IMG/VR virus record: IMGVR_UViG_3300010158_000052
From: an uncultured virus (IMG/VR IMGVR_UViG_3300010158_000052)
Taxonomy: Duplodnaviria; Heunggongvirae; Uroviricota; Caudoviricetes
Length of the DNA stretch: 20,000 nucleotides
Strand: one strand, 5' to 3'
Under the pieces are notes generated by a model, which had not been told where the DNA came from, did not search any database, and worked only from the letters and a program-made list of their open reading frames with translations. Position numbers and translations under genes: made by a program. This document shows, piece by piece, positions 1,276-14,916 of the stretch (the stretch's first letter is position 1; every line of letters begins with the position of its first letter).

Positions 1276-2709
1276 ATGTCGATTGAGCAAACTATTCTAT
1301 CAAACCTTATTCACAATAAGGAATATGCGAGAAAGGTTCTTCCTTTCGTAAAGCCAGAATATTTTGCTGATCAATCGTATCGTACCTTGTTTTCTTTGAT
1401 TGATGAATACACACACAAATATAATGAGCCTCCCTCAAAGGAGGCTCTACATATTGACCTTGATAACAAAACAGGACTTAATGAAGAGTTGTTCAAAGAT
1501 ACACAAGAACTTGTGTCTTCTCTTCAGTATGATGATCAGACAAATTCTGACTGGCTTCTAGATGAAACAGAACGTTACTGTCAAGAACAAGCAGTCTATA
1601 ACGCCTTGATGGAAAGTATCGCTATCCATTCTGGTAATGATAAGGATAAGGATAAGGGGTCTATTCCTGAAATCCTTTCCGAAGCCTTGGCTGTATCTTT
1701 TGATACAAATGTTGGTCACGACTTTATTGATAATGCAGAAGAGCGATATGACTTCTATCATACGAAGGAAGATCGTATTCCGTTTGATCTTGATATTTTC
1801 AATAAGGTAACACAGGGAGGTGTCGCAAGAAAGACTTTGAGTATTGCTCTTGCCTCTACTGGTGTTGGTAAGACGATGTTTATGGCTCACTGTGCTGCTG
1901 CTAATCTTTTGCATGGTGTGAATGTTCTCTACATTACAATGGAAATGTCAGAAGAACGTATTGCTGAACGCATTGATGCGAACTTGATGAACATATCTAC
2001 TGAAGAACTACGTGAACTTCCTCGTGATTCTTTCCAGAAGAAGATGGCTCGTGTCAAGACAAAGGTTAAGGGTAAACTTATTATTAAGGAATATCCAACC
2101 AGTGGCGCTGGCGTATCTCACTTCAAGCATCTTATTCAGGAACTAAAGCTAAAGAAGGGCTTCGTTCCTGATGTTATCTATATTGACTATCTGAATATCT
2201 GTGCGTCATCTAGGATGAAGATGGGGAATAGCGTCAATAGCTATACTTACATCAAGTCTATTGCAGAAGAAATTCGTGGTCTAGCTGTAGAAACAAAGAC
2301 TGCTATCTTTACCGCTACACAAACAAATCGTGATGGTTATGCATCTAGTGATGTTGACCTCGCAAACACATCAGAAAGCTTTGGCGTTCCTGCTACTGCC
2401 GACTTAATGTTTGCTCTTATTGCTACCGAAGAACTTGAAGAAATGCATCAGCTAATGGTGAAAATCCTCAAGAACCGATATGCAGAGAACGGCAAGAAGT
2501 TTGTTATTGGTATGGATAGAGCCAAGATGCAGTTGTTCGACGCAGAACAATCTGCACAGGACGATCTCGACAATTCAACTCCTAAGAAGAGGAAGAAGAA
2601 TAAAGATGTTCCTGTGATGGATGAAACTCAGTATGGCGAACGTTACGAAGAAGACATGAAGGCAACATGGAAAAGCAAAAAGAAGAATTTTGATGATTTC
2701 ATGGCTTGA
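1276..2709 (+). CDS. 41: gp41-like replicative DNA helicase (DnaB family)
   Basis: ASTGVGKT Walker A, YITMEMSEERIAERIDAN, IIKEYPT, YIDYLNIC, ATQTNR, SESFG, KNRY. SD AGGAG. Confidence 0.97.
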   Translation: MSIEQTILSNLIHNKEYARKVLPFVKPEYFADQSYRTLFSLIDEYTHKYNEPPSKEALHIDLDNKTGLNEELFKDTQELVSSLQYDDQTNSDWLLDETERYCQEQAVYNALMESIAIHSGNDKDKDKGSIPEILSEALAVSFDTNVGHDFIDNAEERYDFYHTKEDRIPFDLDIFNKVTQGGVARKTLSIALASTGVGKTMFMAHCAAANLLHGVNVLYITMEMSEERIAERIDANLMNISTEELRELPRDSFQKKMARVKTKVKGKLIIKEYPTSGAGVSHFKHLIQELKLKKGFVPDVIYIDYLNICASSRMKMGNSVNSYTYIKSIAEEIRGLAVETKTAIFTATQTNRDGYASSDVDLANTSESFGVPATADLMFALIATEELEEMHQLMVKILKNRYAENGKKFVIGMDRAKMQLFDAEQSAQDDLDNSTPKKRKKNKDVPVMDETQYGERYEEDMKATWKSKKKNFDDFMA

Positions 2710-2733
2710 CAAATAAAATAAGAAATACTATAT
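2705..2733 (+). promoter_or_regulatory. Host-type promoter for hsp20
   Basis: CTTGAC-N17-CTATAT (also readable as TTGACA-N17-TATATA), overlapping the gp41 stop codon. Confidence 0.8.
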
Positions 2734-2740
2734 ATGCTTG

Positions 2741-2794
2741 GCGTTGCCAATGTGGGACGCTTTAATATATCTTGCTTAAATGGAGAAACACATG
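2741..2794 (+). promoter_or_regulatory. ROSE-like RNA thermometer in hsp20 5' UTR
   Basis: Hairpin 1 GCGTT-G-CCA-atg-TGG-GACGC (2741-2760). Hairpin 2 TCTT-G-CT (2770-2776) can pair with SD GGAGA (2782-2786) with a bulged G, matching the U(U/C)GCU ROSE signature upstream of an sHsp. Confidence 0.65.
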
Positions 2795-3223
2795 ATGCTT
2801 AAGACTTTTTTTAATCAGTATGAAGAATTGATGAAGCTAACTGCAAACCTTAATTCTGATTTGACACATATTCCTTATTATAATATTATTCGTAAGTCTT
2901 CTCTTGCGGACAATGGACATATTATCGAGATTGCTCTTCCTGGATTTACAGAAGAAGACATCGATGTGTCTAAGAAGGACAACCGTGTGTCTATTCATGC
3001 GAAGCGTTCCGATGCTGGCGAACGTCCGTATGTATATCGTGGTATCAATAAAAACCATTATGCAGTTTCTTTTGTCGTTCCAGATAATAGTATCGTAGAC
3101 GATGTTACTTTGGAAGATGGTATCTTGAAGATTCTTATTTCCTATGCCACAGATAAGGCAAAGGAAGAATCTATTCCGATCAATTCCAAAAAAGATAAGA
3201 AGAAAACCTTTATCCAAGATTAA
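2792..3223 (+). CDS. hsp20: Small heat shock protein (Hsp20/IbpA-like)
   Basis: PYYNII, IEIALPGF.EEDIDV, YVYRGI, LEDGILKI, C-terminal IPI motif. Start moved to ATG 2792, which follows SD GGAGA. Confidence 0.92.
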   Translation: MMLKTFFNQYEELMKLTANLNSDLTHIPYYNIIRKSSLADNGHIIEIALPGFTEEDIDVSKKDNRVSIHAKRSDAGERPYVYRGINKNHYAVSFVVPDNSIVDDVTLEDGILKILISYATDKAKEESIPINSKKDKKKTFIQD

Positions 3224-3231
3224 TATATCGA

Positions 3232-3259
3232 TTGACATTTGGTCAAATTGATATATTAT
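3232..3259 (+). promoter_or_regulatory. Sigma70-type promoter
   Basis: TTGACA-N16-TATTAT, or extended -10 TGaTATATT. Predicted start site about 3264-3266. Confidence 0.7.
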
Positions 3260-3263
3260 AAGT

Positions 3264-3336
3264 AGATAGACTGTCGTTTAATAAAGACCTCGCGGCTTTG
3301 AACCCGATGATGAAGGACACTCCTTCCAGTCTATCT
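3264..3336 (+). ncRNA. tRNA-Gln(UUG)-like RNA, non-canonical (no D-loop GG, no TTCRA T-loop, no CCA)
   Basis: Cloverleaf by eye: acceptor TAGACTG/CAGTCTA (extends to 10 bp); D stem GTTT/AGAC; anticodon loop CTTTGAA in stem TCG-c-GG/CCCGA; variable TGAT; T stem GAAGG/CCTTC with a 5-nt loop. Confidence 0.75.
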
Positions 3337-3359
3337 TTAATTTTTATGAAAGAATTGAA

Positions 3360-3527
3360 ATGACCGAGACGCCATCTGTACTTCGTGAAAAGATCACTCA
3401 TCAAATCTATGAAACTATGCAGAAGACAAAGCCATATCCAAGCAATCAACTTGTTTCTATGCATCAATGTCGTATGGCAGCTATTGCCGTTGTCGATATT
3501 ATTTTAGAGACAGCGGGTTCAAAGTGA
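3360..3527 (+). CDS. Hypothetical protein (55 aa)
   Basis: Manually translated ORF MTETPSVLREKITHQIYE...ILETAGSK* fills the gap on the coding strand. Confidence 0.6.
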   Translation: MTETPSVLREKITHQIYETMQKTKPYPSNQLVSMHQCRMAAIAVVDIILETAGSK

Positions 3528-3571
3528 GTTATACTATTCAGGAAATGGAAATGTCTTTAACAGGAAACAAA

Positions 3572-3754
3572 ATGAAAACGACTTTTTTTGTTGATTACTA
3601 TCTTGAAGAAGGTGGGCGAAAGTCTCGTCAACAAATGCAAGGCAGTTCTACTCTGAACTTAGCTGGATCGACTAGTGATTTTGCTGTTCAAAATTATTTA
3701 CAAGAACGCCATCAAGGCAAGACTGTGAGTATCATGAACATCAAGTGGTTGTGA
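3572..3754 (+). CDS. Hypothetical protein (60 aa)
   Basis: SD AGGA before ATG 3572 (MKTTFFVDYY...). The stop overlaps the next start (TGATG). Confidence 0.7.
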   Translation: MKTTFFVDYYLEEGGRKSRQQMQGSSTLNLAGSTSDFAVQNYLQERHQGKTVSIMNIKWL

Positions 3755-4041
3755 TGGAAGAAGAATTTTTAGTAACTTGTAATGAGTGTGGAACTGAGTT
3801 TGAAGGATTTTTTCATAATCAAGCAAACGACTGCGCTTCTACTTTTTATACTATGACAGGTCCTTATGACAGTACATTATACTTAGTAGCTGGTGGGTTT
3901 GGTTCTAAGCTCATTGATTTTGAATCTTGGAAGTTTAATAATGATCCTGGTTTAAACGTGGGCGATACCTTATGTGATTCTTGTATCAAGACATTTCAAG
4001 AATCTGGCGAATTAACCCTTTATAGAAACGAGTTGATATAA
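3754..4041 (+). CDS. Hypothetical protein with two CxxC motifs (putative Zn-binding)
   Basis: CNEC and CDSC motifs; translationally coupled on both sides. Confidence 0.75.
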   Translation: MEEEFLVTCNECGTEFEGFFHNQANDCASTFYTMTGPYDSTLYLVAGGFGSKLIDFESWKFNNDPGLNVGDTLCDSCIKTFQESGELTLYRNELI

Positions 4042-4202
4042 TGAGTAGAGAAGTAGAAATCGCTGCTATATTCAGATTGATTGAAAAGCTCAACGAGATG
4101 AAAGAAATGGGCGCAGCTCCAAAAGATATTGAAAATTTAGAAGATGATATTGGTAATTTACAAATGAATTCAATTATAGGAGATTTATTCGATGAAGATT
4201 AA
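4041..4202 (+). CDS. Small acidic hypothetical protein (53 aa)
   Basis: TAATG coupling; MSREVEIAAIFRLIEKLNEMKE...DLFDED*. Confidence 0.65.
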   Translation: MSREVEIAAIFRLIEKLNEMKEMGAAPKDIENLEDDIGNLQMNSIIGDLFDED

Positions 4203-4779: not shown

Positions 4780-5880
4780 ATGAATTATTTGTTTACAAGC
4801 GAAAGCGTCAGCGAAGGTCATCCAGATAAAGTTGCTGATCTTATTAGTGATTCTATTTTAGATTTAGTCATGAAACATGAAGACACAAGCATGAGATGTG
4901 CGTGTGAAACATTAGTTACTACAGATAAAGTAATTTTAGCTGGAGAGTACAAAGGTATTTTAAATCCAGAAGAAGTTGAAAATACAGTTCGTTCTACTAT
5001 TAAAAATATTGGGTATGAACAATCTGGATTTAATTGGCGCACTGTAGATATTACTAATTTACTACACGGACAGTCAGAAGATATTGCTTTAGGTACTGAT
5101 AATTTTGGTGCTGGTGATCAGGGTCTTATGTTTGGTTATGCATGTAATGAGACTAAAAATTATATGCCAGCAGCTATTAATTATAGTCACCAGATAATGC
5201 AACATCTAACTTCTCTTCGTAAAAATGGACAAACTGAGCTAGGACCAGATTCTAAGGCACAAGTAACTTTAGAGTATGATGACCGTAATAATATTATCGG
5301 TATCCGTAAAATCGTATGCTCAACTCAACATAGAGAAGATGTAAAAATTGAACATGTTAGGGAAATAGTAGAAGGTGCTATCCGTAATTTAATTTCTGAA
5401 GTAAATTTAAAAAATACTGAATTTCTAATTAATCCTACAGGTAGATTTGTTATCGGTGGTCCAGATGGAGATACTGGTCTGACAGGTAGAAAGATTATCG
5501 TAGATACTTACGGAGGCTCTTCTCCTCATGGTGGTGGTGCTTTTAGTGGTAAAGACCCAACAAAAGTAGACAGAAGTGCTGCATACATGGCTCGATACTT
5601 AGCTAAGAATATCGTATATAATTGGGCGTATTCTACACCAATGTTTGCTACAGTTCAATTAGCATATGCTATTGGCGTTGCAGAACCAATTAGTGTGAGT
5701 GTTAAAGTTAATGGCCAAGAAGATCAACATTTATCTAATTGGATTTCTAAGAATGTTGACTTGACGCCAAAGGGAATTATTGATAAGTTTAAATTGTTCC
5801 GTCCCATATATACACAAACTACAAACTATGGTCATTTCGGAAAAACTGAGTTACCTTGGGAATCGTTAGATTTATTTTAA
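4780..5880 (+). CDS. metK: S-adenosylmethionine synthetase
   Basis: FTSESVSEGHPDK, GAGDQG, PDSKAQV, GGPDGDTGLTGRKIIVDTYGG, GGGAFSGKDPTKVDRS, YGHFG. Confidence 0.97.
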   Translation: MNYLFTSESVSEGHPDKVADLISDSILDLVMKHEDTSMRCACETLVTTDKVILAGEYKGILNPEEVENTVRSTIKNIGYEQSGFNWRTVDITNLLHGQSEDIALGTDNFGAGDQGLMFGYACNETKNYMPAAINYSHQIMQHLTSLRKNGQTELGPDSKAQVTLEYDDRNNIIGIRKIVCSTQHREDVKIEHVREIVEGAIRNLISEVNLKNTEFLINPTGRFVIGGPDGDTGLTGRKIIVDTYGGSSPHGGGAFSGKDPTKVDRSAAYMARYLAKNIVYNWAYSTPMFATVQLAYAIGVAEPISVSVKVNGQEDQHLSNWISKNVDLTPKGIIDKFKLFRPIYTQTTNYGHFGKTELPWESLDLF

Positions 5881-6367: not shown

Positions 6368-6766
6368 ATGGTAGAAAAAAATCCAACATTTGGGGAAAGA
6401 TTAGCTGACCGTGCTGCTAAAACTTTAGGCTCTTGGAGATTTATTGTTTTACAAAGTTGTCTATTGCTTTCTTATATATTGTGGAATACTCTAGGTCCAA
6501 TAAATTTAAGGTTTGATTCGTTTCCTTTTATATTTTTAAATCTAGCATTATCATTTCAAGCAGCATATTCTGCTCCAATTATTATGATTAGTAACAATAG
6601 GCAATCTCAAATTGATCGTGAGCGTTCAATTTCGATATATAGATTAGAGACCTCTGAGCACGAACAATTGTATAAACTTACTGAGCATATTGATAAACAC
6701 TTTGAAAAAATTCATGAAAAGATCGAAAAACATGGGTTGACAAAAAATGAAGATGTGCTATACTAA
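6368..6766 (+). CDS. DUF1003-like membrane protein
   Basis: GERLAD....GSWRFI, FDSFPFIFLNLALSFQAAYSAPIIMISNNRQ; two TM helices; SD AGGAG. Confidence 0.85.
   Translation: MVEKNPTFGERLADRAAKTLGSWRFIVLQSCLLLSYILWNTLGPINLRFDSFPFIFLNLALSFQAAYSAPIIMISNNRQSQIDRERSISIYRLETSEHEQLYKLTEHIDKHFEKIHEKIEKHGLTKNEDVLY
6737..6764 (+). promoter_or_regulatory. Sigma70-type promoter
   Basis: TTGACA-N16-TATACT with extended -10 TG, lying inside the 3' end of the DUF1003 gene. Confidence 0.75.
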
Positions 6767-8675: not shown

Positions 8676-8702
8676 AAAGCCTCCTTCGGGGGGCTTTTTT
8701 TT
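8676..8702 (+). terminator. Rho-independent terminator
   Basis: AAAGCCTCC-TTCG-GGGGGCTTTTTTTT: cUUCGg tetraloop plus U-tract. Confidence 0.93.
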
Positions 8703-8719
8703 GTTGGATTTTAATAAAG

Positions 8720-9336: not shown

Positions 9337-9777
9337 ATGTCAGTGGTTGCAGATAAATTAAAAGTTGTTTTAGCTGATACTTTTGCTATGTATCTTAAAA
9401 CTCATAACTATCATTGGAATGTAGAAGGCGCAGACTTTCCTCAGTACCATTCATTCTTTGATGGATTATATAATGAGCTTTGGTCAGCCACAGATGCTAT
9501 CGCAGAACACATTCGTGCCTTGGATGAATATTCTCCTGGCTCATTTTCTCGTTTCTCAGAACTAACAAACATCGAAGACGCTACTACTGTTCCAGATGCC
9601 CGATCAATGTTTTCAAGATTGTTGGCAGATAATGAAATTGTACTTAATACACTAAAAGAAGCATATGAAGCTGCTAATGATGCCAACGAAATTGGTCTAT
9701 CAAACTTCCTACAAGACAGAACAGACACCCATAAGAAGCATGGTTGGATGCTCAGAGCCACCTCCAAGAAATCATAA
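9337..9777 (+). CDS. dps: Dps mini-ferritin
   Basis: HNYHWNVEG..F..YH.FF..LY.E.....D.IAEHIRAL ferroxidase motifs; HKKHGWMLRA. SD AGGAG. Confidence 0.95.
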   Translation: MSVVADKLKVVLADTFAMYLKTHNYHWNVEGADFPQYHSFFDGLYNELWSATDAIAEHIRALDEYSPGSFSRFSELTNIEDATTVPDARSMFSRLLADNEIVLNTLKEAYEAANDANEIGLSNFLQDRTDTHKKHGWMLRATSKKS

Positions 9778-12183: not shown

Positions 12184-12188
12184 TATAA

Positions 12189-12232
12189 AATTGGAGGAGA
12201 TATGTCAAATATTATTAATATCTCCTCCAATT
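12189..12232 (+). repeat. Perfect 15-bp inverted repeat/hairpin
   Basis: AATTGGAGGAGATAT-N14-ATATCTCCTCCAATT. Confidence 0.9.
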
Positions 12233-12259
12233 CTACTTTGTAACTAGTAAAGCAATATT

Positions 12260-12652
12260 ATGAATGAAAAATTAGACGAAACCAATTTCTTATTATATGC
12301 CGCAAAATATTATGATAATCCACAATGTTTTGATACTCAAGAGTTTCTTGAAGATTTAAACAGGTTTAGATATATTAAGAGACTTTTAAAACGTTATAAA
12401 GAAACTGGTGAGTTAAAAGAACGTCTAATTTTAAACCATATCATTATCATTTATAATGTATTTGGTGTTCTTCCTGCCACAAGAATGTTATTTTTTAAAA
12501 TGACAAATATGCATTCTGAGCTTAAGCCTTTTCTAGAATTTTTAACTTATATGCCAAGTCGAATAGAAAATATTGGGTTCATTCCTAAAACATTAATCAG
12601 TGCAGATATTCCTTCTGATAAATATGTTGAAGAATGTTTAGCAAAAATATAA
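12260..12652 (+). CDS. Conserved T4-like phage hypothetical protein
   Basis: NFLLYAAKYYDNPQC...EF.EDL.RFRYIKRL...GELKERLILNHIII.YNVFG motif recalled from T4-like phages. Confidence 0.85.
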   Translation: MNEKLDETNFLLYAAKYYDNPQCFDTQEFLEDLNRFRYIKRLLKRYKETGELKERLILNHIIIIYNVFGVLPATRMLFFKMTNMHSELKPFLEFLTYMPSRIENIGFIPKTLISADIPSDKYVEECLAKI

Positions 12653-13888: not shown

Positions 13889-13917
13889 GGATGCTGAATT
13901 AATGATTGGATTTTGTT

Positions 13918-14916
13918 ATGTATTGGGTTGACGTTAAATATGCTATGCAACTTCGTGGACGATTGGACAAGTTCGTTGTCAAGAATCAATCACCACTGCT
14001 AATCAATTTCCGTTGCTATCTGTGCGGAGATTCAGAAAAAAACAAAACCAAAGCTCGTGGTTACATGTATGCACAGAAAGACACTGTGCATTATCATTGT
14101 CATAACTGTGGCGTGACAAAATCTATATCCAAAGTATTAAAAGAACTTGATCAACTCATGTACAAAGAATACTTGATGGAAACCTTTCAAAATGGAAACC
14201 AGAGAAAAGAAGATGCTCCTAGTATTTCTAATCCAAAACCTATATTTAAACGTCCTCCAGCAAACTTGGCTAAACTTAAGAAAGTCTCGCAGCTAGACCC
14301 AACCCATCCTGCAAAACTGTATGTGGTCGGCAGAGGTATTCCAACTAAGTATCATCACAAATTATATTTTTGTAGTAAGTTTGTTGCTTGGACAAATAGT
14401 ATGATACCAAACAAGCTTTCTCCAGAACATGAGCATTCTCGTCTCATTATTCCTTTGTTTGATAAGAATGGAGAAATGTATGGGTATCAGGGTAGAAGTC
14501 TAAGTTCAACTTCCAAGATGCGTTACATCACTATTATTCTTGATGAAGATGTGCCAAAGCTATACGGCATGGATACCTGTGATGTTTCAAAGACCCACTA
14601 TATAACAGAAGGACCAATTGACTCCATGTTCCTAGAAAATTCTATGGCCATGGTTGGGTCGGATGCTCCTTTAACGTGGTTTAATAAAGACACTGCTGTT
14701 TTTGTTTATGATAATGAACCTAGAAATAAAGAAATTGTAGCAAAGATAGCTAAGACAATTGCTCGTGGATATAAGGTAGTTATTTGGCCATCTTCTATTG
14801 ATAAAAAAGATATTAATGATATGGTGATGATAAATCTAGATGTAAATTCTATCGTTAAGGAAAATACGTTTAGCGGACTTGAGGCTATGGCAACGTTAGA
14901 AAAATGGAAAAAGTAA
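13918..14916 (+). CDS. 61: gp61-like DNA primase
   Basis: Zn finger NFRCYLCGDS...KARG...CHNCG; RLIIP; GYQGR; TOPRIM TEGPIDSMF; YDNEPRN; KDINDM. Confidence 0.96.
   Translation: MYWVDVKYAMQLRGRLDKFVVKNQSPLLINFRCYLCGDSEKNKTKARGYMYAQKDTVHYHCHNCGVTKSISKVLKELDQLMYKEYLMETFQNGNQRKEDAPSISNPKPIFKRPPANLAKLKKVSQLDPTHPAKLYVVGRGIPTKYHHKLYFCSKFVAWTNSMIPNKLSPEHEHSRLIIPLFDKNGEMYGYQGRSLSSTSKMRYITIILDEDVPKLYGMDTCDVSKTHYITEGPIDSMFLENSMAMVGSDAPLTWFNKDTAVFVYDNEPRNKEIVAKIAKTIARGYKVVIWPSSIDKKDINDMVMINLDVNSIVKENTFSGLEAMATLEKWKK

What the first reader, a model, noticed from the sequence alone, without database searches (positions are those of the whole stretch)
3232..3345. Separately promoted tRNA-Gln(UUG) mimic with both elbow loops shortened and no CCA
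Seen: all four cloverleaf stems are retained, with perfect acceptor and T stems, U1-A72 as in tRNA-Gln, and an intact anticodon loop CU-UUG-AA. The D-loop (AATAA) lacks GG and the T-loop (ACACT) lacks TTCRA, so both partners of the elbow contact are gone. The anticodon stem has a bulge, and the acceptor stem is extended to 10 bp, burying the discriminator/CCA positions. A TTGACA promoter puts the start at about 3264-3266, the base of the stem, and TTTAATTTTT follows. Inference: losses confined to loops fit a repurposed, non-chargeable tRNA-like RNA better than random decay. It could be a decoy for anticodon nucleases (RloC-type enzymes act on the wobble position of Glu/Gln/Lys tRNAs), a sponge for U34-modifying enzymes or synthetases, or a structured leader for the downstream small-ORF/metK run. 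Standard tRNA finders may miss it. This is my best candidate for an undescribed system here.
Basis: partly seen in the sequence, partly recalled or inferred. Interest (0 to 1): 0.85.

Follow-up and report, generated by a model that had tools for sequence, protein, structure and literature searches.

The report
Elbow-less tRNA relic heading phage transcript
An uncultured freshwater T4-like phage carries one tRNA-Gln-shaped remnant that has lost the parts a working tRNA needs and sits directly after a promoter, most likely as a folded leader for the genes behind it; its function is untested.

Summary
Window 3267-3334 folds as a four-armed cloverleaf with a UUG anticodon, a 5-nt D-loop, a 5-nt T-loop and no CCA. 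The acceptor stem extends to 10 bp (3264-3336). A TTGACA-16-TATTAT promoter ends 5 nt upstream, and a U-rich tract follows.

It is tRNA-derived rather than chance. Rfam tRNA scores 25.9 bits, below the 29-bit cut-off, with E 3.4e-5 per 20-kb record. No comparable sub-threshold hit lies outside tRNA arrays in 228 kb of related phage records.

It is almost certainly not a decoding tRNA. The same phage's tRNA-Gly, tRNA-Thr and tRNA-Ser have canonical T-loops and encoded CCA.

Relatives at 50-63% helicase identity scatter real tRNAs through the same region, but none carries this element. I found only near-identical copies, so covariation could not be tested.

Klebsiella phage RaK2 places its two annotated pseudo-tRNAs the same way: promoter, extended acceptor stem, T-rich tract, small gene.

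My best reading (0.42) is a tRNA relic kept as the 5'-terminal structured leader of a transcription unit. A neutral pseudogene (0.3) and a trans-acting decoy (0.1) remain open. Nothing tested here bears on the decoy idea. Interest is moderate.

The parts
3221..3258 (.). Imperfect palindrome (arms 3221-3233 and 3246-3258) running from the hsp20 stop codon across the -35 box into the -10 box. It could be an operator-like site in DNA or a roughly 16-bp hairpin in read-through RNA.
   Evidence: I8: 13 nt, 92% complementary; hairpin in the minimum-energy fold of 3200-3350, z -4.66
3232..3259 (+). Sigma-70-type promoter TTGACA-16-TATTAT. It can also be read as an extended -10 box, TGATATATT at 3249-3257. 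The predicted start is about 3264-3268.
   Evidence: 11 of 12 consensus matches; among the 7 best matches in the window, and one of three that sit in intergenic spacers before genes, with 1224 and 13860; sequence match only, no mapped 5' end
3264..3336 (+). tRNA-derived cloverleaf with the acceptor stem extended to 10 bp. The core that matches the tRNA model is 3267-3334.
   Evidence: 25.9 bits, E 3.4e-5 per record; I21; z -3.19, 0 of 200 shuffles fold as well
3276..3288 (+). D-arm: 4-bp stem and 5-nt loop AATAA. A14 and A21 are kept; G18 and G19 are absent.
3290..3307 (+). Anticodon arm: 5-bp stem with C3293 bulged, 7-nt loop CTTTGAA, anticodon TTG at 3298-3300 (Gln).
3312..3326 (+). T-arm: perfect 5-bp stem (G53-C61 kept) and 5-nt loop ACACT in place of the 7-nt TTCRANY loop.
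   Evidence: compare the canonical T-loops of the phage's own tRNAs
3336..3359 (+). A/U-rich tract. TTTAATTTTT (3336-3345) can pair with AAGAATTGAA (3350-3359), leaving ATGA in the loop. One strain (L002) has TTTTTTT in place of TTTTT.
   Evidence: fold of 3264-3420; run-length variant
3346..3363 (+). Five-codon mini-ORF (MKELK) whose stop codon overlaps the next start codon (ATGA). Neither start has a Shine-Dalgarno sequence.
   Evidence: direct reading; AGGAG-type sites stand before other genes of the window (printout)
3360..3527 (+). First gene of the unit, 55 aa, no known family. It is truly coding: in a variant contig, 6 of the 7 listed differences fall on third codon positions.

Best explanation
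The element is the remnant of a phage tRNA-Gln(UUG) gene that no longer decodes. It persists as the folded 5' end of a transcription unit. A sigma-70-type promoter would start RNA at about 3264-3268, the first bases of the 10-bp outer stem. The primary transcript would then begin with a compact four-way junction and no single-stranded 5' tail. An A/U-rich tract follows, then a mini-ORF and the small genes that run on towards metK.

Inferred mechanism: a structure flush with the 5' end shields the message from 5'-end-dependent decay (pyrophosphohydrolase and RNase E entry). It may also supply a tRNA-shaped landmark for cleavage in transcripts that read through from hsp20. The stems are what matter, so the two loops that make the tRNA elbow and the CCA end were free to shrink.

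Shown: the tRNA ancestry, the loss of decoding features, the sequence-level promoter, the single-copy status, and the fact that the downstream ORF is coding. Inferred: the transcription start, any effect on stability or processing, and selection on the stems.
For: tRNA ancestry: 25.9 bits, E 3.4e-5 per record. There were no such hits outside tRNA arrays in 228 kb of relatives, and none elsewhere in the three records of this phage (74.5 kb summed; they overlap).

Not a working tRNA: the phage's tRNA-Gly(UCC), tRNA-Thr(UGU) and tRNA-Ser(UGA) score 49.9-70.6 bits, have 7-nt T-loops and encode CCA.

A tRNA-Gln(UUG) ancestor is plausible. All three real tRNAs have U34, and CAA makes up 117 of 165 Gln codons in 24 ORFs of the window. 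Relatives place real tRNAs 0.1-5 kb downstream of the same helicase gene: 5 of 60 IMG/VR loci, and 12 of 22 metagenome loci against 0 of 18 further IMG/VR loci. One of them, tRNA-Asn in L095, lies 19 nt after a TTGACA-17-TATACT promoter.

Leader anatomy: the promoter ends 4 nt before the stem. All 24 pairs are standard. The spacer is strongly structured: z -3.19 for 3261-3348 and -4.66 for 3200-3350.

A contig from an RNA library spans 3223-3621 without a difference, so the element and the ORF are contiguous there. This is weak, because DNA can be present in such a library.

A variant contig, 3266-3545, has 9 differences. Seven are listed; all lie in 3371-3464 and none in the spacer. Fisher tests of third-codon sites against spacer sites give p 0.0015, or 0.005 if both unlisted differences fall in the spacer.

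The same architecture occurs in an unrelated large phage. RaK2 pseudo-tRNAs gt006 and gt007 each lie 9-12 nt after TTGACA-17-TATAAT and have 13-bp extended acceptor stems. In gt006 a T-rich tract and a small ORF follow directly. In gt007 about 220 nt lie between the stem and the T-rich tract before the next ORF.
Against: No covariation evidence exists. Every copy found is identical across the element: 3 IMG/VR contigs plus G001. No homolog was found in 560,596 plus 169,571 bases of relatives or in records G003-G005.

The perfect stems are partly an ascertainment effect.

The variant-contig evidence is one contig at depth 3.4. Its differences cluster, which could reflect a recombination mosaic, and two differences near its ends are not located.

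The RNA-library contig starts at 3223, upstream of the predicted start, so it shows read-through or DNA, not a promoter-initiated RNA. Contigs cannot show ends.

The cloverleaf is 2.1 kcal/mol above the predicted minimum.

The likeness to RaK2 is one of architecture only. Model R1 gives 15.2 bits (E 0.022) for gt006 and 6.2 bits (E 6.1) for gt007, and Rfam tRNA does not match gt006 at E<=1.

The stabilising role rests on general knowledge of 5' stem-loops in E. coli messages, which I recall and did not test here.
Confidence: 0.42

Rival explanations
1. Neutral pseudogene: a dead tRNA-Gln copy decaying in a spacer, with no role of its own. The promoter serves the downstream genes and the T-rich tract belongs to their translation start region.
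For: The element is a singleton with no family. Relatives turn tRNAs over in this region, including a tRNA fragment left beside an HNH gene in L046. Pseudo-tRNAs are routinely annotated in large phages (RaK2 paper, passages read). The cloverleaf is not the predicted minimum.
Against: All 24 pairs are standard, while both elbow loops have been remodelled by deletions. The stem is extended by three further pairs exactly where the transcript should begin. No difference is listed in the spacer of a variant whose adjacent third-codon sites differ at 6 of 35. Phage spacers are short, and 70 nt of dead DNA is unusual in this window.
Confidence: 0.3
2. Trans-acting tRNA-Gln mimic: an RNA of about 75-80 nt made from its own promoter and ended at the U-rich tract. 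It is not chargeable. It would titrate an anticodon-directed defence nuclease, a U34- or A37-modifying enzyme, or a synthetase.
For: The anticodon loop is intact and 7 nt long, with U33, UUG and A37, while the elbow and CCA are gone. A promoter precedes it and a U-rich tract follows. Working phage tRNAs that evade tRNA-cleaving defences are in print: eLife 2023 PMC10264068, Nature 2024 PMC11464382, Nat Commun 2024 PMC11555353 (search listing only).
Against: No discrete small RNA was shown, and the RNA-library contig runs through the tract into the ORF. The tract is interrupted, follows an A/U-rich stem base with 4 G-C pairs of 10, and can pair downstream instead. The terminator scan does not call it. 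No partner gene lies nearby. No other lineage has it. The bulged anticodon stem and the alternative fold that buries UUU argue against faithful mimicry.
Confidence: 0.1
3. Attenuator or leaky intrinsic terminator. The 10-bp outer stem plus the U-rich tract stops part of the transcripts coming from hsp20 and from the promoter, setting the dose of the small-ORF/metK run. A tRNA-binding factor might stabilise the junction.
For: A 10-bp perfect stem is followed at once by TTTAATTTTT. Total folding energy is -23 kcal/mol.
Against: The scan does not call it. The interior is a 53-nt multibranch. The stem base is A/U-rich. The RNA-library contig crosses it. No Rfam riboswitch or leader family matches at E<=10. 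The window's clear terminator looks quite different: 8676-8697, 9 pairs, then TTTTTTTT.
Confidence: 0.08
4. A working but unusual tRNA-Gln(UUG), processed from the paired leader and trailer, given CCA by the host enzyme and used to read CAA.
For: The anticodon loop is intact. U8, A14, A21, U33 and G53-C61 are kept. CAA is the main Gln codon, 117 of 165. Leader-trailer pairing occurs in tRNA precursors (recalled).
Against: The T-loop has 5 nt and lacks T54-Psi55-C56. The D-loop has 5 nt and lacks G18G19. Position 73 is U and 2-71 is A-U, whereas I recall G73 and G2-C71 among the GlnRS identity elements in E. coli. The phage's three real tRNAs all encode CCA and have canonical loops. The score is below the Rfam cut-off and ARAGORN makes no call in any mode.
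Confidence: 0.03

Closest known systems
Pseudo-tRNA genes of large lytic phages, in particular F403_gt006 and F403_gt007 of Klebsiella phage vB_KleM-RaK2 (NC_019526; annotated tRNA-OTHER, pseudo)
   Same: Each is a tRNA-shaped, non-canonical element lying a few bases after a TTGACA/TATAAT-type promoter, with the acceptor stem extended beyond 7 bp (13 bp in RaK2, 10 bp here). After gt006 a T-rich tract and a small ORF follow directly, as here. The RaK2 paper calls them pseudo-tRNA genes and assigns no function (passages read).
   Different: The phage lineage is unrelated. There is no demonstrable sequence homology: R1 gives 15.2 bits (E 0.022) for gt006 and 6.2 bits (E 6.1) for gt007. The RaK2 elements keep 7-nt T-loops, and gt006 is less tRNA-like by Rfam, with no match at E<=1. 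After gt007, about 220 nt separate the stem from the T-rich tract and the next ORF. The window element has both elbow loops cut to 5 nt and a clean UUG anticodon loop.
Canonical phage-encoded tRNAs, including those shown to evade tRNA-cleaving defences (T5 tRNA against PARIS, phage tRNA-Tyr against retron Eco7, mycobacteriophage tRNAs with altered anticodon loops)
   Same: A phage-borne tRNA-type gene with a U34 anticodon, as in the phage's own Gly, Thr and Ser tRNAs. It lies in a region where relatives keep real tRNAs.
   Different: Those are full, chargeable tRNAs. This one lacks the elbow loops and CCA and falls below the tRNA cut-off. I saw only titles and the starts of abstracts for these papers.
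5'-terminal stem-loop stabilisers of bacterial and phage messages (for example the ompA 5' UTR; recalled, no call)
   Same: A stable helix stands flush with the predicted 5' end of a primary transcript, ahead of an A/U-rich translation start region.
   Different: Those are simple hairpins. This is a four-way junction of tRNA descent, and no stabilising effect was measured.
Non-chargeable tRNA-like RNAs of other viruses and cells (gammaherpesvirus 68 tRNA-like RNAs, mascRNA, tRNA-like domains of bacterial Y RNAs; recalled, no call)
   Same: tRNA-shaped RNAs that are not used in decoding.
   Different: As I recall them, those keep the T-loop/D-loop elbow and are recognised by RNase P, RNase Z or the CCA-adding enzyme. 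Here the elbow is what is missing.

Membership tests
tRNA (Rfam RF00005), working gene | Score at or above the curated gathering score of 29 bits | tested here: not met
   25.9 bits. There was no match at gathering threshold in the window.
tRNA (Rfam RF00005), working gene | Four-armed cloverleaf with a 7-nt anticodon loop, U33 and a purine at 37 | tested here: met
   All 24 pairs are standard; the loop is CUUUGAA.
tRNA (Rfam RF00005), working gene | 7-nt T-loop with T54-Psi55-C56 and a D-loop with G18G19 (the elbow contact) | tested here: not met
   The T-loop is ACACT and the D-loop AATAA. ARAGORN finds nothing at default, 95% or 80% thresholds, or in mitochondrial mode.
tRNA (Rfam RF00005), working gene | A 3' CCA encoded, as in this phage's own tRNA genes | tested here: not met
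   Positions 73-76 read TCTT and are paired into the extended stem. The Gly, Thr and Ser genes all end in CCA.
tRNA-derived relic (pseudo-tRNA) | Significant similarity to the tRNA model together with loss of features needed for function | tested here: met
   E 3.4e-5 per record. Empirical null. Losses as listed above.
tRNA-derived relic (pseudo-tRNA) | An intact counterpart at the same place in relatives | tested here: inconclusive
   Relatives at 50-63% helicase identity carry Tyr, Asn, Thr, Glu, Pro, Gly, Leu, Ile or Met tRNAs downstream of the helicase, but no tRNA-Gln and no hsp20 junction. The 73-74% clade could not be fetched.
Intrinsic terminator | A G+C-rich hairpin with a short loop, followed at once by an uninterrupted U-tract | tested here: not met
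   The scan does not call it. The stem has 4 G-C pairs of 10, the interior is 53 nt, and the tract is TTTAATTTTT. The RNA-library contig crosses it.
Known riboswitch or leader RNA families, including the SAM classes (considered because metK lies downstream) | A match to an Rfam covariance model | tested here: not met
   Of the 8 matches at E<=10 in 3100-3500, only tRNA is below E 0.5.
Promoter-proximal tRNA-like leader modules (RaK2 type; not a curated family) | A sigma-70-type promoter no more than about 12 nt upstream, an acceptor stem extended beyond 7 bp, then a T-rich tract and a small ORF | tested here: met
   Window. RaK2 gt006 and gt007.
Promoter-proximal tRNA-like leader modules (RaK2 type; not a curated family) | Sequence or structure homology to the RaK2 elements | tested here: inconclusive
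   R1 with filters off on 10 kb of RaK2: gt006 is the best hit but weak (15.2 bits, E 0.022); gt007 scores 6.2 bits, E 6.1.
Phage counter-defence tRNA or decoy | Interaction with, or protection from, a tRNA-directed nuclease | not testable with these tools
   The host is unknown and no defence or repair gene was seen nearby.

The most novel reading that the evidence does not exclude
Large lytic phages of unrelated lineages (this freshwater T4-like phage and RaK2-type jumbo phages) repeatedly turn tRNA genes into promoter-flush, elbow-less tRNA-shaped caps on early transcripts. In this phage the cap also keeps a faithful tRNA-Gln anticodon loop because it is released as a small RNA of about 75-80 nt. 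That RNA would decoy an anticodon-directed host nuclease or a U34-modifying enzyme, without being chargeable.
Probability: 0.1. Interest if true: 0.8.

Novelty: new variant of a known kind. Interest (0 to 1): 0.4.

Why it matters
Why phages carry tRNA genes, and what becomes of them when decoding is no longer needed, is still debated. This element shows one possible fate in a very clean form. The two elbow loops and the CCA end are gone, every stem is intact, and the gene sits flush against a promoter. RaK2 places its pseudo-tRNAs the same way. If such relics are kept as 5' caps or processing marks of early messages, many calls of 'pseudo-tRNA' or 'no tRNA' in phage genomes hide a class of leader RNA. 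That class could be tested with simple reporter and end-mapping experiments. If the element is only a decaying gene, it is an ordinary by-product of the tRNA turnover seen in the relatives.

Tried and rejected
Searches for relatives that led nowhere:
- Megablast of 2700-4100 and blastn of 3224-3360 against 50,697 phage records gave no match.
- blastn of the 74-nt element at E<=10 gave 4 records with 18-23-nt matches at E 7, which is chance level.
- An exact 26-mer, and an IUPAC pattern that fixed the loops and freed the stems and anticodon, each found the same 3 IMG/VR contigs.
- Protein-anchored fetches with Hsp20, the helicase and ORF55 returned only identical contigs or relatives at 29% identity.
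- The helicase alignment found no IMG/VR locus above 62% identity apart from the phage's own contigs.
- The P0002 helicase in JGI metagenomes gave loci at 50-63%.
- The helicase alignment in GTDB contigs gave 9 loci at 52-57%.
- The clade at 73-74% helicase identity (P0002-P0005) was therefore not reached.

Other searches and checks:
- Model R1 found no homolog in 84 sources, 22 sources and 5 records.
- The best non-self hits were 18.5 bits inside an ORF of L046 and 14.2 bits in L057, both with many non-pairs. I rejected them.
- The nearest of 24 distinct real tRNAs from the fetched loci shares only 42 of 68 positions, so no donor could be named.
- ARAGORN at a 60% threshold gives 133 calls in the window, which is useless.

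Sequencing runs:
- All four runs laid are kept as contigs, so no starts, ends, strand or levels could be read.
- Parts without cover, such as 3208-3222 in the RNA run, say nothing.
- X12 and X14 cover only up to 3269 and 3240.
- The short pieces at 3187-3228 inside long contigs of X14 and X15 are about 80% alike and are probably unrelated.

Earlier findings of this scan: nothing by place or by sequence.

Ideas considered and dropped:
- A SAM riboswitch for metK (no Rfam match).
- A gene on the minus strand (the ORF 3243-3467 on the minus strand overlaps a plus-strand ORF whose variant sites show it is coding).
- An assembly artefact (identical in 4 independent contigs and in contigs of several runs).
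Full report
**Setting.** The window comes from an uncultured T4-like phage of fresh water. Pfam finds the following genes:
- UvsX at 168-1220
- a gp41-type helicase at 1276-2709
- Hsp20 at 2780-3223
- S-adenosylmethionine synthetase at 4780-5880
- DUF1003, two deaminases, a pyrimidine-dimer glycosylase, ferritin and ThyX
- a class I ribonucleotide reductase

PHROGs adds a primase at 13906-14916. The best cultured relatives of the helicase are Stenotrophomonas phage DLP_6 (55.9%) and cyanomyoviruses (58-59%). The runs that hold the stretch are labelled freshwater or lake metagenomes. The window's own assembly is not held. A near-identical 20.9-kb IMG/VR record (G001) and two overlapping records of the same phage (G002, G003) are held.

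**The observation.** The Rfam tRNA model aligns 3267-3334 end to end at 25.9 bits. The anatomy is:
- a 7-bp acceptor stem with U1-A72
- a 4-bp D-stem with the 5-nt loop AATAA
- a 5-bp anticodon stem with C3293 bulged
- the anticodon loop CUUUGAA, anticodon UUG
- a 4-nt variable region
- a perfect 5-bp T-stem with the 5-nt loop ACACU
- U at position 73 and no CCA

Three more pairs extend the acceptor stem to a perfect 10-bp inverted repeat, 3264-3273 with 3327-3336 (I21). TTGACA-16-TATTAT lies at 3232-3259 and matches 11 of 12 consensus positions. TGATATATT at 3249-3257 also reads as an extended -10 box. Either reading puts the start near 3264-3268. TTTAATTTTT follows at 3336-3345. ARAGORN finds no tRNA in the window at default settings, at 95% or 80% thresholds, or in mitochondrial mode. 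Rfam at gathering thresholds also finds nothing.

**Is it more than chance?** Yes, as a tRNA relative.
- The E-value for the tRNA model alone is 3.4e-5 in G001 and 4.2e-5 in G002.
- In those three records of this phage, the only other matches at E<=1 are three true tRNAs.
- In five related phage records (228 kb), the 38 matches above the cut-off are tRNAs. The three below it are a tRNA cut by a contig end (23.8 bits) and two pieces inside tRNA arrays (19.2 and 13 bits). None lies in ordinary sequence.
- The segment folds better than all 200 shuffles (z -3.19).
- The 10-bp stem alone would not be remarkable, since the window holds 31 such repeats.
- The cloverleaf (-20.9 kcal/mol) is not the predicted optimum. 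A three-way junction with the same outer stem and T-arm reaches -23.0.

**Not a working tRNA.** The same phage carries tRNA-Gly(UCC), tRNA-Thr(UGU) and tRNA-Ser(UGA), 11-15 kb upstream of the element in G002. They score 49.9-70.6 bits, have the usual GTTCGAnTC-type T-arms, and all encode CCA. Against that standard, the element lacks both partners of the elbow and the 3' end. A UUG anticodon would nevertheless fit the phage. All three real tRNAs have U34, and CAA accounts for 117 of 165 Gln codons in 24 ORFs. Descent from a once-functional tRNA-Gln(UUG) is therefore plausible, though it is an inference.

**Relatives.** I could not find a copy that differs.
- Three IMG/VR contigs and G001 are identical over the element. 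One of them has TTTTTTT instead of TTTTT in the tract.
- Fetches anchored on Hsp20, the helicase and ORF55 gave only those contigs or very distant ones.
- The protein search shows a clade at 73-74% helicase identity (P0002-P0005). Neither IMG/VR (no locus above 62% apart from the phage's own contigs), JGI metagenomes (50-63%) nor GTDB contigs (52-57%) yielded it.
- A covariance model of the element (R1) found only itself in 560,596 bases of 84 sources, nothing in 169,571 bases of 22 sources, and nothing in records G003-G005.
- A loop-anchored pattern with free stems and anticodon found only the same three contigs.

Covariation, the test that would settle function, is therefore not available.

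**What the relatives do show.** The region downstream of the helicase is a tRNA zone.
- 5 of 60 IMG/VR loci have one tRNA (Ile, Leu or Met) 140-1163 nt after the helicase match.
- 12 of 22 metagenome loci have one to four tRNAs (Tyr, Asn, Thr, Glu, Pro, Gly) 0.65-5 kb after it, set singly between small ORFs. None of 18 further IMG/VR loci has any.
- These tRNAs turn over. In L046 an HNH-type ORF and a different tRNA stand where L049 has tRNA-Leu, and the 3' end of the old gene is left behind.
- One real tRNA (Asn in L095) lies 19 nt after a TTGACA-17-TATACT promoter. That is the only one of 26 distinct tRNA contexts with an 11-of-12 promoter.
- None of 24 distinct tRNAs from these loci is close to the element; the best shares 42 of 68 positions.

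**Reads.** All runs were available only as contigs, so ends and levels cannot be read.
- One metatranscriptome run has a 399-nt contig covering 3223-3621 with no difference, and another covering 2775-3207. The element is therefore contiguous with ORF55 in that library. The contig begins upstream of the predicted start, and DNA cannot be excluded.
- A DNA run holds a variant contig, 3266-3545, with 9 differences. The 7 that are listed lie at 3371-3464, and 6 of the 7 fall on third codon positions of the 3360 frame. This shows that ORF55 is a real gene. None is listed in the spacer.
- Third-codon sites (6 of 35) against spacer sites (0 of 63, or at worst 2 of 94 if both unlisted differences lie there) give p 0.0015 or 0.005.
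- This is one contig at depth 3.4, and its differences cluster. I treat it as a hint of constraint, not proof.

**Surroundings.**
- The promoter is wrapped in an imperfect palindrome, 3221-3233 with 3246-3258 (I8). In read-through RNA this would form a hairpin of about 16 bp.
- The U-rich tract can pair with AAGAAUUGAA at 3350-3359, leaving AUGA in the loop.
- A five-codon mini-ORF (3346-3363) ends in an ATGA overlap with the ORF55 start. Neither start has the AGGAG-type site seen before other genes of the window.
- The downstream proteins up to metK have no family, and none is tRNA-related.
- No Rfam leader or riboswitch family matches.

**A parallel.** Notes from earlier agents of this scan (e1-321088, e1-217346, e1-328470) said that RaK2-type jumbo phages put tRNA-like modules between early promoters and the first gene. 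I checked the named example.
- In NC_019526 the two annotated pseudo-tRNAs, gt006 and gt007, each lie 9-12 nt after a TTGACA-17-TATAAT promoter and have 13-bp extended acceptor stems.
- After gt006, a T-rich tract and a small ORF follow directly.
- After gt007, about 220 nt lie between the stem and the T-rich tract before the next ORF.
- The RaK2 paper lists them only as pseudo-tRNA genes (passages read).
- The layout matches the window element, but homology is not shown. R1 gives 15.2 bits (E 0.022) for gt006 and 6.2 bits for gt007, and Rfam tRNA does not match gt006 at E<=1.

**Explanation.**
- Near-certain: the element descends from a tRNA and is not used in decoding.
- Most likely (0.42): it survives because the transcript of this unit begins with it. 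It would act as a compact helix junction flush with the 5' end that protects or marks the message, with stems under constraint and elbow loops free to shrink. The steps from promoter match to real start, and from structure to stability or processing, are inferred.
- Neutral pseudogene: 0.3.
- Trans-acting tRNA-Gln mimic: 0.1.
- Attenuator: 0.08.
- Odd but working tRNA: 0.03.

**Novelty and score.** Pseudo-tRNAs in large phages are known. A relic with both elbow loops trimmed, all stems intact and a promoter flush against it, matching the RaK2 layout in an unrelated phage, is a new variant of that kind. It is a singleton with no covariation and no mapped RNA ends, so I score its interest at 0.4. 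The decoy reading is not excluded and would be of high interest, but I give it about 0.1.

Noticed in passing
window 3221-3258: An imperfect palindrome (TAATATATCGATT / AATTGATATATTA, with further near-matches inward) encloses the -35 box and overlaps the -10 box of the 3232 promoter. It could be an operator for a dimeric regulator, or a hairpin of about 16 bp in read-through RNA from hsp20. The other two intergenic TTGACA promoters (1224, 13860) have no such palindrome.
   Followed up: partly
window 3336-3363: A five-codon mini-ORF (MKELK) ends in an ATGA overlap with the start of the 55-aa ORF. The U-rich tract can pair with the purine run just before that start. Neither start has a Shine-Dalgarno site, although AGGAG-type sites precede other genes of the window. 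This may mean translational coupling or control by an A/U-rich enhancer.
   Followed up: no
L046 6103-6670 compared with L049 5793-5876: In one relative an HNH-type ORF (150 aa) and a different tRNA-Leu(UAA) occupy the slot where another relative has a tRNA-Leu(UAA). The last 30 or so bases of the displaced tRNA remain downstream. This looks like homing-endonuclease-linked tRNA replacement.
   Followed up: partly
L094-L112 (metagenome loci), 0.65-5 kb downstream of the helicase: Freshwater T4-like relatives scatter single tRNA genes (Tyr, Asn, Thr, Glu, Pro, Gly) between small early ORFs instead of clustering them. Some abut the stop codon of the preceding ORF, for example tRNA-Tyr at L106 8086. 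The layout resembles mitochondrial tRNA punctuation.
   Followed up: partly
L140 (NC_019526) 6501-6617 and 5609-5736: Both annotated pseudo-tRNAs of Klebsiella phage RaK2 lie 9-12 nt after consensus TTGACA-17-TATAAT promoters and have 13-bp extended acceptor stems that begin AATCAAGACAAG. After gt007 there is a further G+C-rich structured stretch of about 200 nt before the next gene.
   Followed up: partly
window 12186-12235: An 18-nt inverted repeat, 94% complementary with a 14-nt loop, in the spacer before the ORF at 12260. One arm holds GGAGGAGATATG, a ribosome-binding site plus ATG, so the hairpin could mask a start site or end the preceding unit.
   Followed up: no
window 8676-8705: The clearest intrinsic terminator of the window: a 9-bp G+C-rich stem with a TTCG loop followed by TTTTTTTT, after the glycosylase-like ORF. 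It is useful as this phage's own standard for what a terminator looks like.
   Followed up: no
window 4780-5880, 6368-6766, 9337-9777, 2780-3223: Auxiliary genes that are unusual together in a T4-like phage: MetK, DUF1003, ferritin and Hsp20, alongside ThyX and two cytidine/dCMP deaminase-family genes.
   Followed up: no
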